A stretch of DNA of 64,000 nt from Octopus vulgaris (taxonomy: Eukaryota). Position 1 is the stretch's first letter, and every line of letters begins with the position of its first letter. The DNA is taken from NCBI GenBank assembly GCA_951406725.2, contig OX597817.1:175088001-175152000 (forward strand). The letters are read 5' to 3'. This document shows, piece by piece, positions 46,401-61,400 of this stretch. Made by a program: the position numbers.

Positions 46401-49400
46401 GTTCTTTGTAGTATATTTCCTTGCTATTATTGTTGAGAGAACACAATATTCAATGTGTTGTTTATCTTCAGACTTTTGTTTTAAGATATTCTGTATGTTT
46501 CTCCTTTTTTATTGTATCAGGACTAGTTGTTGTAATATATTTGTACTTCACGCTTTTCATATACTGCTGTTGTTTCCAAGTGATATAACTTTCCATTTGT
46601 CAGAGACAAATAGGTTTTCAGTGATTCTTTAGTAACAGAATAGTTTAGTTAAATGTTTGAAGCAGTTTATGATTTGTGTTGTAGAAAGTTTTATCTGAAA
46701 ATGTATTAGCAAAGTGGGGGAAAATAACTCAAAGGATTTTTGTAACATTTTGAACCTATTGTTGTTTGTGTTGTTTAAATTGGTAGGTTTCATGTTTTTT
46801 ATTCTACCTTGTGGTTGCAAGAATAAATGCCATCCTCTTTCAGATACACATGGAGATGGTATGTATGGTGCAGATGAAGGAGTGGTTTTGACTTCTCCTC
46901 CCTCAACATGTGATCGTGATGAGAGCTATGCAAAAGGGATTCCGCCGTACGGCTTGCTGACACATTCATCACAAGATGGGTTTTCTTCTTCCGATAAAAC
47001 AGGTGATGTCACTTCTCCTGCTGATGCTTGTTATGAGTTTCATACTGCTACACCTGACATTACTTCCCCTCCATCACCTGATTCTCATGGTGATATAAGT
47101 ATTTTATCAGCTCAAGGGCAACAAGTTCAACCTTCGTCCCTCCACGAAAGTGTTAGCCCTCATGTAATTGAAAAGGATGTAAAACCTCATACGATAACTT
47201 TTAGTACTTCGGCTAATCCCAAACCCCAAATTACAGGAATGGAGTTGAATATTGAAAAAACTGAATTTCCTTCACTGCAGGGTTTAGAAAGTTGTGATAA
47301 TGGTACCAAGTCTTTCAATAAATCTCAGTGCCTGCCTTCTGAAACAAATGTCAAAAGTATGGATGTAGTAGATAGTTCTAAACCTTCATTAGAACATGTT
47401 TCCGAGCTTGAAGTTGATGTCAGCAAAGCACCCCAGTCTGATGGAGCATCTGCTGCAAGCAGCAAATCTGAAGGGAGCAAAGAAACTTTGACATTAATTT
47501 CATCAGAATCTTGTCAAATATCTATTACCAAAACTGAAGAAGAAAGTGATTCCGAATCTGAAGAAAATTCTGTTATAGAGAGAGATCCCTCACTGCTGGA
47601 CTCTGATTCAACAGGTTACGGAGACCAGAAGTCTGACACTGATAGCTCGTATGTTGAAGAAGAAGAAGTGTCAATTTCTGATTCAGACGAATCAATTCCT
47701 TTTGGAAACTCTGATAATAAAGAAACAGAAAAGAAGAAATCTTTTGATGAAGAATTAATTTCGAAACAAACTGCTGCTGAAACTTCATATATTGAAAGTC
47801 AAGAAAGGATGCCTACATTTTATACTGATGCTTTGGATTCTCGACAAAATCATGAAGCATCCAGTACAAGTGCAGACAGCAAGAAAGAGTGCCAAAAAAG
47901 TGAAGTTATTGCGAAATCTAAGGTTGGTTCACTGTCGAGTAGTGACTCAACTTCAGATTCAGCAGCAAGTATCATAGAAACTGTACCTCAGAAATTGAAA
48001 TCTGAACTGTCATCAGTGTCTCAAAAATCTACAACGTCAAATGTAGTAGAAACTTCAAGTGCAGTGAAGTTGTTATCGTCAGTTGAGGAAGATGATCCAA
48101 ATTTTCAGGAAGGCCCTCAAACTGTTGAAGACAGTTCTTCAGATAGGGATGAATATATGTATACATCCGATATTGAAGCTAAAGTCATCCAAGAAAAAAT
48201 TGAATCTCTCATTTCAGAAGTAGCTGAAGAAATGAGAAAAGGTCAATGCTCATTTGATGAAACAATAAAGGAATATCATACAGAAACTCTTAAGGCATTG
48301 GAAGCTGTTGAGGGTGATAATCATTCCTCAGGAGATATGCCTGATGAGAGTTTGGAACAGTACTATTCTTTAGATGAAACTCACAGTGTTGACAGTAATG
48401 AGACACTTGAATTTGCTGAAGAAAGTGCTGAAATGAAAGATACAGAAATGGTTGTGACAGCTGACATGACAGCATCTGATGATGTGATGAAAAAGGTTGT
48501 GGATGACTCTAAAAAGAGCTTCGAAGAAGAAAGTTTGAAAAAAAGTGTAATATCCCCTAAGATGGATATTGGTAGCTTGTCAGAGTTGGAAGCAGTTCCT
48601 TCTAAAGTTGAAAAGTCTATTTTGGAAGCTAAAGTGGTTTCAATAGAAGGAAATCCAACAGAGACAGAAGAGGCCCACAGAAAAAGTATGGAAACATGTC
48701 CAACTGACAAAGCTCATATACAAGAGGTAAGTGTGAAAGACCAAAGCAAGGAAGCATCAGAAACAAGCAAGGAGGTTGAATGTTTGAGGGAAATAAAAAC
48801 GAAACCAAAGGAGAGCGATACCCATTTGGAAGAAGACTCACAAGATATTACTGGTATACCTTCTGGTACTTATCTTGGGAAAAGACTAAGCCTTGTAGAA
48901 AGTCCCCGCGAAATGATGGAAATTGCTAGAAGAGGAAGTATCATTGACACAAAGTCAGTTTTTTCTGAGGTTACCCAAGTGAAGCCGATAGAATCCTCTC
49001 CCATAGTAGTTAAAGAGCAAACAGCAATTTCAGAGCCTGCACCCACATTAATAAAAATGGATGTAAAATATACAGAAACTGTTCCTCCTCTAGCAAAAGA
49101 GGAAATATTCATTGAAAAGACTGCACCTTGTGAGGTTGAAGAAATAAAAGCAGTAGAGACTGAAGAAATTGTGGTTAAAAGTGTACAACCTACAGAATCA
49201 GTTTCTCTTTTTGAAAAAATAGAACATCCTGAAACAACTGCATATCCTCTAATTAAAGAAGAGAAGGCTATTAAAATGATCCCATGTACTCCACCGGAAT
49301 CCACTGTACATGAAGTAAAACTAAAAGAGACTGCACCTTCTGGGATTAAAGAAGAAAAAGCTATTAAAACAATCCCTTGTACTCCGCCTGAACCCATAAA

Positions 49401-58400: not shown

Positions 58401-61400
58401 GGCTCCTGAGGTGAAACCTGTTGAAGCTCTTGAAGAGAAACCTGTGGAGGCTACTGAGGTAAAACCTGTGGAGGCTCTTGAAGAGAAACCTGAGGAGAAA
58501 CCTGTGGAGGCTCTTGAAGAGAAACCCGAGGAAAAACCTGTGGAGGCTCCTGAAGTAAAACCTGTGGAGGCTCTTGAAGAGAAACCTGAGGAGAAACCTG
58601 TGGAGGCTCCTGTGGCGAAGCCTGTGGAGGCTCCTGAGGTGAAACCTGTGGAGGCTCCTGAAGTAAAACCTGTGGAGGCTCTTGAAGAGAAACCTGAGGA
58701 GAAACCTGTGGAGGCTCCTGAGGCGAAACCTGTGGAGGCTCCTGAGGTGAAACCTGTGGAGGCTCCTGAAGTAAAACCTGTGGAGGCTCTTGAAGAGAAA
58801 TCTGTGGAGGCTCCTGAGGCGAAACCTGTTGAAGCTCTTGAAGAGAAACCTGTGGAGGCTACTGAGGTAAAACCTGTGGAGGCTCCTGAAAAGAAACCTG
58901 TGGAGGCTCCTGAGGAGAAACCTGTGGAGGCTCCTGAAGTAAAACCTGTGGAGGCTCCTGAGGAGAAACCTGAGGAGAAACCTGTGGAGGCTCCTGAGGT
59001 GAAACCTGTGGAGGCTGCAGAGGCAAAACCTGTAGAGGTTCCTGAAGAGAAATGTGTTGAGGCTCCGGAGGAGAAACCTGTGCTATCTGCTGAGGAGACA
59101 CTTGTGGAAGCTCGTGGAGAGAAACCTGTGGAGGTTCCTGAAGAGAAACCTATAGAAGCACCTGAGGAAAAACCTGTGGAGTCTACTGAGAAAGTACCTG
59201 TGGAGGCTCCTGCAGAAAAACCTGTGGAAGCTGTTGAAAAGATATCTGTGGAGTCTACAGAGGAGAAATCTGTGGAGGCTCCTGAGGTTGCATTATCGGG
59301 TGTTACTCTTACGGATGGTAGGAAGTTAGTTGAAAAGGAAGAAAGTACAGGGACTGAAATCTGTGGTGAAGCACAAGGCAAAGATTCTGACCAGATGGGT
59401 CTTTTAACAGCAATTCTTGATGAAGAAAATCAGAATGTACCATCAGGAGATAGCATTAGTGACTCTGTTGTATCAACTGTATGTGAAATTGGTGTTGCAA
59501 AGAAAGTTGAACCAGAGATGCCAAAGGAAAGCCAAGCAACTGAAGTGTCTGATATATCAGAAGTAGATTCATTGAAGTTAAATGGTGATCACTCAGAAGT
59601 GAAACTGTCTGACAGTGGTCTCGATCATTCTGGTGTTTCCACTGAATTTCAAAATGAAGTGGCAAAATCAAATCTTACTGCTGTTGAATCTAATAAAGAC
59701 ATTGCTGACCAAATTGGCGATATATCACTTGGAACTGCTGTTAGTGCTAAAGATGAGGTAGAATCTGTGATAAAACCTATTTCTGTTGAAGAAACTCCTC
59801 AGATTGAATTGAAAAGTAATAAGGTGTCCAAAGCTGATTCTGAGAGCCAACCAATTGATACAGTCAATGAAAAGCAAGCATATTCAGATATTGAACACTT
59901 GCAAAAACTAAATGGTGATTTGTTACCAAAAGATCTTGAAGAGATTGTCAAAGTAACTAAGACTGAAGATGGCAATACTGTCAACAAAGTTGAGCTGCTG
60001 GTTCAAAAGAAAGCTAAGATTTTGACCTCTGAGCAAATTATCAAAGATAACCAGAAAATGACTAAAACCAAAGACACAAAACTGAAAAAGTCTAAAAAGA
60101 AAGAGTCTAAGAGTAAAAGTCGTGGAGAAATAACTCCTGGAAAAGAAGGAGTCCGATCTAAATCCTCAAAAAGCAGTCCGGAGAAAGGTGTAAAAAAAGA
60201 GAAAAAGGCGTCATCACTTGTCAGTACTCCAAAACAGAAATCAACCTCTTCCTCTAAGCAAAGTTCAAGTTCAATGAAGAAATCAAAAGGAAGTAGTAGC
60301 CCTACAAAATCCAAGTCTAGTTCTTCGAAAAGCAAGGGCACAAGTAGTACTGAAAAAGTAAAACCAGTACTTAGGTCTGTCTCTTCACCCCCCAAAGCAA
60401 GCAGTAGCCCTATAAAAACAGATAGTATTGATTCTTCAAAAGTATCTGATTCATCCCTGAAGAAAGAAAACAATACTTTGCCTGCTGAGAAACCACGAGG
60501 AAGATCAACAAGTAGGAGCGTCATACTGAAGAGAACTACCAAAACTGAAAAATTAAGACTGGCAATGATAAAAAACACTTTGGAAGCTAGTCAGAACCAA
60601 GTTGGTCCAGCATATTCACATTCTCCAAGTGCCCGCCGAATACGCAGCTGCAGTCCCCAAAAAACCTCTCGAGTGACATCACCTGATAAAAGGACAGGAT
60701 CACCTTTGAAGACAAAGTCAACCACTGCCCGTTCAAGAAAAGGTTGAACTATCTGTATCAGCTTAATAGTCTTCCCTTGCAGCAAGCAATTGTGTATGCC
60801 TGGGTGTGTTAGCATTTTGTCTCCGTTCCGCTATTATTTTGCAGCTTGCATTGGACAAACCATATGTATAACCAGTTGTTTCATAGCAGATGTAGCAATA
60901 TACAGTGATATTGGTATTGATATACAGTGATATTACATTAAACCATAGAATTTGTATTGATTAAATGACTTTTTCATGGATGAACTTAGTTGCCACAGTG
61001 ATACCACTATTTGCTTTTAAGAATTTTTAATAATTATTGCTTAAAATATTGATTCTGGTTATTTAATTGCTTCTAGGATAAATGCTATTTAAGTGGTATC
61101 ACTGTTTTATTTATGGGTGTATAAAAAAATGTGCGTATATAATTGCATACTTATGTATATGTATGCATGTAACTTAGTGTTTTTTTTTCATGTACATGCA
61201 TATATCAATATATGTACATTTTCAAATATGTATATATATGTGTGTATATTTTTGTGTGTGCAAGTGTGTGCAAGTAATGTGTGCCTGCATTTCTACAAGA
61301 GTTATTACCAACTTTTAAGTATGTTTCATTGGTGTGTGTAGAGTTGTGAACTCTATACACACATATCAGAATGTATGAAAACGAATCTTCAAAATTATTT

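What the first reader, a model, noticed from the sequence alone, without database searches (positions are those of the whole stretch)
46844..60747. A ~13.9-kb single giant exon encoding a ~4,650-aa acidic spacer protein, possibly a skippable phase-1/phase-1 cassette
Seen: one uninterrupted coding block with an acidic Glu/Ser/Thr-rich N-half, a huge repeat array and a basic tail, and no recognisable globular domain. It starts in phase 1 and has a candidate phase-1 donor AAG|GTTGAA 3 nt before the stop, so it could be included or skipped in frame. Established: giant-exon isoforms of ankyrin-G/B, Drosophila Ank2 and big tau, and the giant Futsch/MAP1 proteins, act on axon calibre and microtubule spacing; MAP2/tau/MAP4 have an acidic projection followed by a basic Pro/Ser region before the microtubule-binding repeats. 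Inference: a lineage-specific giant MAP-like isoform, potentially an independent cephalopod solution for large axons, with the binding domain downstream of this window.
Basis: partly seen in the sequence, partly recalled or inferred. Interest (0 to 1): 0.88.

Follow-up and report, generated by a model that had tools for sequence, protein, structure and literature searches.

The report
Giant exon encoding acidic PEVK-like protein
A 13.9-kb exon encodes a huge, floppy, strongly acidic protein built largely from about 240 copies of an eight-residue Pro-Glu-Val-Lys-type repeat and ending in a short basic tail; it is probably a cytoskeletal spacer or spring, but its family could not be identified.

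Summary
The coding block at 46844-60747 is real, but it is not uninterrupted as given. The frame is open for 46699-56976 and for 58231-60747. Between these stretches, 7 one- or two-base indels inside the repeat array create 33 in-frame stops. The indels sum to +3, so the frame is restored; they are most likely assembly errors.

- an acidic Ser/Glu/Asp part;
- a Glu/Lys/Val/Thr/Pro middle part with three copies of a helical motif;
- a 5.76-kb array of 24-nt units (K-P-V-E-A-P/L-E-x, 78-79% P+E+V+K, net charge -0.2 per residue);
- a basic Ser/Lys tail (pI 11.1) holding 7 of the 8 [ST]Px[KR] sites.

Pfam, PDB sequence searches, AlphaFold2 and the ESM Atlas found no domain and no relative.

The phase-1/phase-1 arithmetic holds. 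However, the proposed donor AAG|GTTGAA scores no better than a random GT (rank 432 of 705), so the exon most likely ends the protein at TGA 60745-60747. No tubulin-binding repeat, Ig, ankyrin or filament signature occurs in the window.

The reading as an extended acidic spacer or spring tethered by a basic tail is reasonable. Membership of the tau/MAP2/MAP4 family is untested, and the skippable-cassette idea is not supported. Interest is moderate.

The parts
27368..27413 (+). Candidate first coding mini-exon: ATG plus 15 codons plus 1 base, donor AAG|GTAAGT, phase 1. Membership in this gene is unproven.
   Evidence: Sequence read. Donor score is +7.8. It is one of 3 ATG-bearing, phase-1-compatible candidates among 19 strong donors upstream. 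At 15 aa it is too short for any search, and it was not joined to the giant exon.
46844..60747 (+). Giant coding exon (13,899 nt to the proposed donor at 60742; stop TGA at 60745-60747).
46846..48399 (+). Segment A: acidic Ser/Glu/Asp/Thr-rich part. 518 aa, pI 4.27, 38 [ST]xx[DE] sites.
48400..53526 (+). Segment B: Glu/Lys/Val/Thr/Ser/Pro-rich part with loose KPxE(T/A) units. 1709 aa, pI 4.47. Includes a 93-nt repeat at 49252-49428 and a 42-nt (14-aa) repeat at 49480-49664.
48823..48945 (+). Conserved motif, copy 1 (HLEEDSQDI...KRLSLVE...RRGSII).
   Evidence: AlphaFold2 on the three-copy alignment predicts two helices with pLDDT about 88.
49666..49809 (+). Conserved motif, copy 2.
53149..53283 (+). 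Conserved motif, copy 3. It is 60% identical to copy 1 over 122 aa.
53528..59287 (+). Tandem array of 24-nt units (about 240 units) with consensus K-P-V-E-A-P/L-E-E/A/V. Interspersed 15-nt KPEE- units and higher-order periods of 108-408 nt.
   Evidence: TRF; unit logo from 158 canonical units; repeat offsets; composition.
56944..58267 (+). Stretch of the array carrying 7 frameshifting indels and 33 in-frame stops. Probably assembly errors.
59290..60171 (+). Segment D: post-array linker. 294 aa, pI 4.91, with low-confidence predicted helices.
60172..60744 (+). Segment E: basic Ser/Lys/Thr/Pro/Arg tail. 191 aa, pI 11.1, net charge +34, 7 [ST]Px[KR] sites. A predicted helix lies at 60541-60594.
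60743..60748 (+). It is weak.

Best explanation
Shown:
- 46844-60747 is a real, giant protein-coding exon.
- Its product has no recognisable folded domain; the two regions folded with AlphaFold2 are mostly disordered.
- About 3,700 in-frame residues are strongly acidic.
- An array of roughly 1,900 residues is built of eight-residue K-P-V-E-A-P-E-x units (78-79% P+E+V+K, about 45% charged, net -0.2 per residue).
- Three copies of a roughly 45-residue motif are predicted to form two helices. They carry 5 of the 6 [RK][RK]x[ST] sites in the 3,378 aa scanned (exon start to 56976).
- The last 191 residues are strongly basic (pI 11.1) and carry 7 of the 8 [ST]Px[KR] sites.

Inferred:
- The 7 indels in 56944-58267 are assembly errors, and the true frame is continuous.
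- The protein ends at TGA 60745-60747, so this is the last coding exon and not a cassette.
- The protein works as a very long, extended, self-repelling polyanionic spacer or entropic spring, with a contour length of the order of 1.5 micrometres.
- The basic tail tethers it electrostatically to an acidic surface, most plausibly microtubules. Proline-directed phosphorylation would regulate the tail, and basophilic-kinase phosphorylation would regulate the helical motifs.

On this reading it works like a MAP projection domain or a PEVK spring, without being a demonstrated member of either family.
For: Coding and frame:
- The open frame far exceeds chance.
- The frame resumes in the same phase after the shifted stretch and stays open through 485 non-repeat codons. 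The indels sum to +3.
- All 7 indels lie in 1.3 kb of the homogeneous part of the array, and none was seen elsewhere in the exon.

Anatomy:
- Composition, charge and pI per segment; unit logo.
- Pfam found 0 families. PDB sequence searches gave only chance hits.
- AlphaFold2: tail mean pLDDT 48.6 with one confident helix. In the motif, helices 20-36 and 38-47 have pLDDT about 88 and the rest is disordered.
- Kinase-site distribution.

Exon end:
- The proposed donor ranks 432 of 705 GT sites.
- Base composition changes abruptly at 60.7 kb.

Precedents, from passages or an abstract read here:
- Basic (pI 10.6), disordered 12-aa repeats of giant ankyrin-B bind and bundle microtubules. Fly giant ankyrin exons lie at the 3' ends of transcripts (PMC7401806).
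- The basic PSP region of MAP4 binds microtubules on its own, while its PGGG repeats are dispensable (PMC2120526 abstract).
- Long projection domains are proposed to space microtubules (PMC10179842).
Against: - No homologue, no expression data and no binding partner were obtained, so the cytoskeletal assignment rests on composition and analogy.
- As given, the sequence has 33 in-frame stops. If the indels are real, the product would be truncated at 56976 or the gene would be decaying.
- The donor matrix is a rough one recalled from memory and built on vertebrate-type sites. A weak donor can still be used, so a downstream exon is not excluded.
- Lys/Ser-rich basic tails with [ST]Px[KR] sites also occur in nuclear and chromatin proteins (recalled knowledge).
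- Codon-position diversity in the array (0.066, 0.18, 0.18) gives no independent sign of purifying selection on the repeats.
- The upstream first exon is not established.
Confidence: 0.45

Rival explanations
1. The exon is an internal, skippable phase-1/phase-1 cassette of a tau/MAP2/MAP4-family gene. It encodes a giant projection domain plus a basic Pro/Ser region, and the tubulin-binding repeats lie on exons beyond base 64000.
For: - Both boundaries are in phase 1 and the length is a multiple of 3.
- The order acidic body then basic Ser/Pro/Lys region matches the family's order of projection region, proline-rich region and microtubule-binding region (PMC10179842 passages).
- A short ATG exon with a perfect phase-1 donor lies upstream.
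- One tau-family gene is reported for Octopus bimaculoides, known only as fragments (PMC8985376 passages).
Against: - The donor GTTGAA scores -4.0 bits, rank 432 of 705.
- There is no PGGG or KxGS-type repeat in the six frames of the window.
- Pfam gave no hit to Tubulin-binding or to the MAP2 projection family.
- PDB sequence searches found no tau, MAP2 or MAP4 chain at E<=10.
- The in-frame TGA follows 3 nt after the proposed donor.
Confidence: 0.12
2. It is the elastic PEVK-type segment of a muscle titin/connectin-like (I-connectin or sallimus-type) protein. It may be a giant terminal exon of an isoform whose Ig exons lie outside the window, and it would act as a passive-tension spring.
For: - The array is 78-79% P+E+V+K over about 1,900 residues.
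- Connectin I-band regions combine Ig domains with unique elastic sequences, and Octopus sinensis has a connectin gene (PMC12198301 passages).
Against: - No Ig signature occurs in any of the six frames of 64 kb (crude motif scan).
- The 10 upstream ORFs tested gave no Ig or FN3 hit, out of the 125 ORFs of at least 70 aa listed apart from the giant ORF.
- Pfam found no PPAK motif hit.
- The net charge is far more acidic than a neutral-to-basic PPAK-type PEVK (the PPAK charge is recalled knowledge).
- 46 kb upstream is exon-poor.
Confidence: 0.15
3. It is the 3'-terminal giant exon of a larger scaffold gene, for example a giant ankyrin-type isoform, whose conserved exons lie upstream of the window. 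The ATG mini-exon would then be a chance match.
For: - Fly giant ankyrin exons lie at the 3' ends of transcripts and are disordered, and such exons arose independently in flies and vertebrates (PMC7401806 passages).
- The mini-exon is only 1 of 3 formal candidates.
- The stop and the weak donor fit a terminal exon.
Against: - No ankyrin-repeat signature occurs in the window (crude scan).
- Nothing links the exon to any upstream gene.
- The mini-exon has an ATG in good context and a perfect donor in the required phase.
Confidence: 0.1
4. The frameshifts are real. The locus would then be a decaying pseudogene, or would yield a product truncated at 56976. Alternatively, the array is a non-coding satellite inserted in an exon.
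For: - As given, the sequence has 33 in-frame stops.
- The array shows no excess of third-position variation.
Against: - The indels sum to a multiple of 3, and the same frame then runs open for 838 codons, 485 of them non-repeat.
- The 12.6 kb outside the 1.3-kb stretch has no frame break.
- By my own comparison of the indel units with the unit consensus, 6 of the 7 indels change the length of a one-base run. This is typical of long-read consensus errors (error type is recalled knowledge).
Confidence: 0.08

Closest known systems
Titin PEVK region and the elastic segments of invertebrate I-connectin / sallimus
   Same: Very long, domain-free, low-complexity segment dominated by Pro, Glu, Val and Lys (78-79% here). 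It is built from short tandem units and has a length comparable to the longest PEVK segments (that length is recalled). The expected behaviour is that of an entropic spring.
   Different: The unit is 8 residues, not a 28-residue PPAK motif, and Pfam gave no PPAK hit. The net charge is -0.2 per residue. No Ig or FN3 exons lie in 64 kb. The whole segment is one exon that ends in a stop.
Projection domains of MAP2, MAP4 and Big tau (tau/MAP2/MAP4 family)
   Same: An acidic, disordered N-terminal body is followed by a basic Ser/Pro/Lys-rich region rich in proline-directed kinase sites. Large single exons add projection length: Big tau exon 4a adds about 250 aa (PMC10179842). A basic non-repeat region can bind microtubules on its own in MAP4 (PMC2120526 abstract).
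   Different: It is about 18 times longer than exon 4a. No tubulin-binding repeats are in the window and there is no sequence similarity to any family member in the PDB. The proposed donor to downstream exons is weak.
Giant-exon inserts of ankyrin-B/G and Drosophila Ank2-L/XL
   Same: Neuron-type giant exons encode extended disordered polypeptides that contain short tandem repeats. Microtubule binding is through basic disordered stretches, and the fly giant exons are 3'-terminal (PMC7401806).
   Different: No ankyrin repeats or other ankyrin modules are in the window. The repeats here are acidic, not basic. The exon may follow a 15-codon start exon directly.
Neurofilament M/H side-arms
   Same: Glu/Lys/Pro/Val/Ala-rich repetitive side-arm with clustered proline-directed kinase sites, thought to act as a charged spacer (recalled knowledge).
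   Different: No filament rod signature is in the window. The [ST]Px[KR] sites are confined to the 191-aa tail and absent from the array.

Membership tests
tau/MAP2/MAP4 family | C-terminal tubulin-binding repeats (Pfam PF00418; PGGG / KxGS-type motifs) | tested here: not met
   Pfam found 0 families for both ORF parts. No PGGG occurs in the six frames of the 64 kb, and the one in-exon K[IVCL]GS match is isolated. Sequence beyond 64000 could not be tested.
tau/MAP2/MAP4 family | Sequence similarity of the projection or proline-rich regions to family members | tested here: not met
   phmmer against PDB chains found no tau, MAP2 or MAP4 chain at E<=10; that the PDB holds tau chains is recalled, not checked. 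No MAP2 projection family hit in Pfam. These regions are poorly conserved even among vertebrates (PMC10179842), so this is a weak test.
tau/MAP2/MAP4 family | Domain order: acidic projection, then basic Pro/Ser-rich region, then repeats | tested here: inconclusive
   The acidic body and basic tail are in that order. The third element is absent from the window.
titin/connectin (I-connectin, sallimus) | Ig (and FN3) domains flanking the elastic segment | tested here: not met
   No Ig signature motif in six frames (crude regex). Of the 125 upstream ORFs of at least 70 aa, 10 were scanned with Pfam and gave none. The definition is from PMC12198301. Exons outside the window were not testable.
titin/connectin (I-connectin, sallimus) | PEVK composition (about 70% or more P+E+V+K; threshold recalled) | tested here: met
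   78% and 79% in the two in-frame parts of the array.
titin/connectin (I-connectin, sallimus) | PPAK-type 28-residue motif (Pfam PPAK) | tested here: not met
   Pfam found 0 families at E<=1. The unit here is 8 residues.
giant ankyrins | Ankyrin repeats and spectrin-binding / death-domain modules in the same gene | tested here: not met
   No ankyrin-repeat signature in six frames of the window (crude regex). Exons upstream of the window were not testable.
neurofilament M/H | Intermediate-filament rod domain upstream of the repetitive tail | tested here: not met
   No rod-end signature in six frames (crude regex). Pfam found 0 families.
alternatively spliced cassette exon | Functional acceptor and donor in the same phase | tested here: inconclusive
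   The acceptor has a pyrimidine tract and cag and both phases are 1. The donor scores -4.0 bits, rank 432 of 705 GT sites (the matrix is recalled and rough). Transcript data are needed.

The most novel reading that the evidence does not exclude
The locus may encode a lineage-specific protein of about 0.5 MDa that belongs to none of the tau/MAP2, MAP1, ankyrin, titin or neurofilament families. It would be an independently evolved giant-exon spacer: a roughly 1.5-micrometre acidic PEVK-like bristle. A phospho-regulated basic tail and three helical motifs carrying basophilic-kinase ([RK][RK]x[ST]) sites would tether it to microtubules or to the membrane skeleton. It could be the unidentified gene behind one of the very high-molecular-weight cytoskeletal proteins described biochemically in squid giant axons. 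That link rests only on the search listing of PMC2114230.
Probability: 0.12. Interest if true: 0.75.

Novelty: new member of a known kind. Interest (0 to 1): 0.42.

Why it matters
Giant exons that encode disordered spacers have arisen independently in vertebrate and fly ankyrins (PMC7401806) and in Big tau. They are linked to microtubule spacing and to the properties of long axons (PMC10179842).

A third, unrelated example in an animal known for very large axons would give a new test case for how polymer length and charge set cytoskeletal spacing or elasticity. At about 1,900 residues, the eight-residue array would also be one of the longest and most regular PEVK-like sequences available for single-molecule mechanics.

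If it proves to be a muscle spring or an ordinary low-complexity protein, the value is mainly in annotation. The locus also flags a local assembly fault in 56.9-58.3 kb.

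Tried and rejected
Searches that found nothing useful:
- Pfam on both ORF parts found 0 families at E<=1. On the three motif copies it gave only Val_tRNA-synt_C at E 0.061.
- Pfam on 10 of the 125 upstream ORFs of at least 70 aa gave only sub-threshold hits: zf-RVT (E 0.0038) and Ndr (E 0.019). On 5 antisense ORFs it gave 0.
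- PDB sequence searches: the N part gave 0 hits. The tail gave one chance hit to a mosquitocidal toxin chain at E 0.82, which was not pursued. The motif profile hit ribosomal protein uL23 at E 0.2.
- ESM Atlas: the best hit for the tail scored 0.75 (an AMER cluster), below the level that shuffled sequences reach. The motif gave no usable hit.
- Rfam at gathering threshold gave 0 matches.
- Literature: six peptide strings from the repeat and the motif matched 0 papers. 'giant exon' together with 'cephalopod' matched 0 papers. Two broader searches ranked nothing relevant. PMC549057 is not held.

Tests that were uninformative:
- Codon-position diversity in the array, as a test of coding constraint.
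- Poly(A) hexamers after the stop. Three lie in 1.75 kb; by my own estimate, not computed in any call, that is about what chance gives in AT-rich DNA.

Considered and rejected:
- Antisense genes inside the exon. The long minus-strand ORFs are mirror images of a purine-rich sense strand.

Not done:
- Fold search, because both models are low-confidence or only a helical hairpin.
- Complex prediction, because there is no candidate partner.
- The genome-contig scan, because that collection holds prokaryotes only.
- Joining the mini-exon to the giant exon for any search.
- A mended reading of the frameshifted stretch. None was built; only local frames were inspected.

Unchecked:
- The protein databases behind search for homologous proteins and the search of protein representatives, and the metagenome and viral collections, were closed. 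Whether relatives exist in other molluscs is therefore unchecked.
- Supplements of PMC8985376, which list the octopus tau-family fragments, could not be seen.
- A resemblance of the mini-exon peptide to vertebrate MAP N-termini is only recalled and was not tested.

Full report
**1. The observation**

Read from stop to stop under the standard code, one + frame is open for 46699-56976 (3426 codons). The same frame is open again for 58231-60747 (838 codons). In the non-repetitive part 46843-53526, the other two + frames carry 182 and 255 stops per 2227 codons, and this frame carries none. Coding is therefore beyond reasonable doubt.

- A pyrimidine-rich tract ends in cag at 46843. The exon starts at 46844 with the last two bases of a codon, which is phase 1.
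- TGA lies at 60745-60747, and AAG|GTTGAA would end the exon at 60742 after one base of a codon, also phase 1.
- The span 46844-60742 is 13,899 nt, exactly 4633 codons.

The block is not uninterrupted, however. The frame carries 33 stops between 56977 and 58228. Seven small indels in the repeat array cause them: +1, +1, -2, +1, +1, +2 and -1, at about 56944, 56993, 57126, 57268, 57365, 57702 and 58244 (sequence seen). They sum to +3.

Following the local frame through the stretch gives the same K-P units throughout. After the stretch the original frame runs open for 838 codons, 485 of them non-repeat. By my own comparison of the indel units printed with the unit consensus, six of the seven indels lengthen or shorten a one-base run. 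All seven lie in the homogeneous part of the array, where unique 20-mers are somewhat more frequent (0.18-0.26) than in most of the neighbouring bins (0.04-0.11).

I read them as local assembly errors, but this is an inference. The window has no N.

**2. Anatomy**

| Segment | Coordinates | Length | Main features |
|---|---|---|---|
| A | 46846-48399 | 518 aa | Ser 19%, Glu 12%, Asp 9%; pI 4.27; 38 [ST]xx[DE] sites |
| B | 48400-53526 | 1709 aa | Glu 17%, Lys 11%, Val/Thr/Ser 9% each; pI 4.47 |
| Array | 53528-59287 | 5.76 kb, about 240 units of 24 nt | Glu 31-32%, Pro 18-20%, Val 13-17%, Lys 13%, Ala 12-13%; P+E+V+K 78-79%; net charge -0.18 to -0.20 per residue; almost no aromatic residues |
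| D | 59290-60171 | 294 aa | pI 4.91 |
| E | 60172-60744 | 191 aa | Ser 27%, Lys 17%, Thr 9%, Pro 7%, Arg 7%; pI 11.1; net charge +34 |

- **Segment B** holds loose KPxE(T/A) units, a 14-residue repeat at 49480-49664 and a 31-residue repeat at 49252-49428.
- **The conserved motif** occurs three times in segment B, at 48823-48945, 49666-49809 and 53149-53283. Copies 1 and 3 are 60% identical over 122 residues. The three copies contain 5 of the 6 [RK][RK]x[ST] sites in the 3,378 aa scanned, from the exon start to 56976.
- **The array** was characterised from 158 canonical units. Their consensus is K-P-V-E-A-P/L-E-E/A/V.
- **The tail (segment E)** holds 7 of the 8 [ST]Px[KR] sites. There are none in the 3,723 in-frame residues of segments A, B and the array.
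- **Totals.** The in-frame residues number 4,208, with a mass of 458 kDa and a net charge of -519. The shifted stretch would add about 425 residues.

**3. Domains and relatives**

- Pfam found nothing in either ORF part at E<=1 and nothing meaningful in the motif.
- Sequence searches of the PDB gave no hit for the 2,227-residue N part and only chance hits for the tail and the motif profile.
- AlphaFold2 on the three-copy motif alignment predicts two helices (residues 20-36 and 38-47, pLDDT about 88) in an otherwise disordered 122 residues.
- The last 485 residues have a mean pLDDT of 48.6. One confident helix lies at residues 418-435, which is 60541-60594. Segments A and B, apart from the motif, were not folded.
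- On a charge-hydropathy scan, 27 of 106 windows lie marginally on the folded side. The motif regions are among the highest.
- The ESM Atlas gave no lead.
- No peptide string from the repeat or the motif appears in the searchable literature. No paper holds both 'giant exon' and 'cephalopod'.
The absence of relatives is therefore not shown.

**4. Surroundings**

- The 46.8 kb upstream and the 3.2 kb downstream are AT-rich (GC 0.25-0.41). They are full of microsatellite-derived pseudo-ORFs and interspersed repeats.
- Ten of the 125 upstream ORFs of at least 70 aa were scanned with Pfam. They gave only sub-threshold hits: a reverse-transcriptase zinc-finger fragment at 19871-20116(-) and an Ndr match at 31201-31647(-).
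- Rfam found nothing.
- No PGGG, Ig, ankyrin-repeat or filament-rod signature occurs in any of the six frames. These are crude motif scans.
- Long minus-strand ORFs inside the exon are mirror images of a purine-rich sense strand and have no family.

**5. Gene model**

It has an ATG at 27368, 15 codons plus one base, and the donor AAG|GTAAGT at 27414 in phase 1. Its donor scores +7.8 bits on a rough matrix that I recalled.

It is not unique. Of 19 strong donors in 1-46843, three are preceded by an ATG-initiated ORF compatible with phase 1. The frame also stays open 145 nt upstream of the acceptor, with in-frame ATGs at 46792 and 46861.

At the 3' end the proposed donor GTTGAA scores -4.0 bits and ranks 432 of 705 GT sites within the exon. 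It is no better than a random GT. Base composition changes abruptly at 60.7 kb. The simplest model is that the protein ends at the TGA. The cassette idea rests on phase arithmetic alone.

The joined sequence was never made or searched, and the 15-residue peptide is too short for any tool.

**6. How it probably works**

Shown: a very long polypeptide with no recognisable domain, about 45% charged and 20% proline in the array, well mixed in charge within each unit, and net negative. A chain like this is expected to be an expanded, self-repelling coil. This rests on established polymer behaviour of polyampholytes and of titin's PEVK region, which I recall and did not test. At about 0.36 nm per residue, the contour length of some 4,600 residues is of the order of 1.5 micrometres.

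The only basic part is the C-terminal tail, which also concentrates the proline-directed kinase sites. The only predicted structure in the acidic body, within the parts folded, is the thrice-repeated helical motif with its basophilic-kinase sites.

My inference is a spacer or spring. The tail would bind an acidic surface electrostatically, and phosphorylation would loosen that binding. The motifs would serve as regulated docking points.

Microtubules are the most plausible surface, by analogy with:
- the basic disordered repeats of giant ankyrin-B (pI 10.6; PMC7401806);
- the basic PSP region of MAP4, which binds microtubules without the PGGG repeats (PMC2120526 abstract);
- long projection domains, which are proposed to set microtubule spacing (PMC10179842).

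None of this is tested here.

**7. Comparison and membership**

- It works like a PEVK spring or a MAP projection domain.
- It fails the tested defining features of the tau/MAP2/MAP4 family: no tubulin-binding repeats in the window.
- It fails those of titin/connectin: no Ig exons and no PPAK motif. It does meet the composition criterion.
- It fails those of giant ankyrins and neurofilaments.
- For all of these families, exons outside the window remain untested.
- One tau-family gene is known in Octopus bimaculoides, only as fragments (PMC8985376). I could not connect it with this window, and the paper's supplements were closed.

**8. Verdict**

- The feature is real and large.
- The spacer idea is reasonable.
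- The MAP-family assignment is open.
- The skippable-cassette idea is not supported by the sequence.
- The locus is a new member of the known kind of giant-exon disordered repeat proteins. Interest is moderate until transcripts and relatives are seen.

Noticed in passing
window 48724-48732: A perfect consensus donor, GAG|GTAAGT (score 7.9, phase 0), lies inside the giant exon about 100 nt upstream of motif copy 1. It is the best-scoring of the 705 GT sites in the exon. It could be an alternative 5' splice site or a chance match.
   Followed up: no
window 46699-46843: The coding frame stays open 145 nt upstream of the acceptor, with an in-frame ATG at 46792 followed by a hydrophobic, Cys-rich stretch. 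A second in-frame ATG lies at 46861. An unspliced start is therefore a formal alternative to the mini-exon model.
   Followed up: partly
window 19871-20116 (-): Weak match to the zinc-binding region of reverse transcriptases (zf-RVT, E 0.0038, below the gathering score). It lies in the most GC-rich part of the upstream region (20-22 kb, GC 0.41) and is probably a retroelement remnant.
   Followed up: partly
window 23263-23643, 29540-29845, 32701-33120 (+): Three ORF fragments share a roughly 45-residue string in translation. This points to an interspersed repeat present in at least three copies in the putative intron.
   Followed up: no
window 48870-50069, 50070-50675, 51552-52256, 52626-53195 (-): Long antisense ORFs (up to 399 aa) lie inside the non-repeat part of the exon. 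They are Ser/Phe/Val/Gly-rich mirror images of the purine-rich sense strand and have no Pfam family, so they are a composition artefact.
   Followed up: yes
window 62813-63115 (-) and much of 1-46000 and 61000-64000: Dense microsatellites, read in translation as [12 protein letters not shown] and a poly-Asp run, fill the flanks. They generate most of the ORFs of at least 70 aa listed there.
   Followed up: no
window 55800-58800: The array has a young, homogeneous core with higher-order periods of 108, 132, 180, 192 and 408 nt. Older, more diverged units lie at 54.2-54.8 kb, 55.5-55.8 kb and 59.0-59.3 kb. This suggests recent expansion and possibly length polymorphism.
   Followed up: partly
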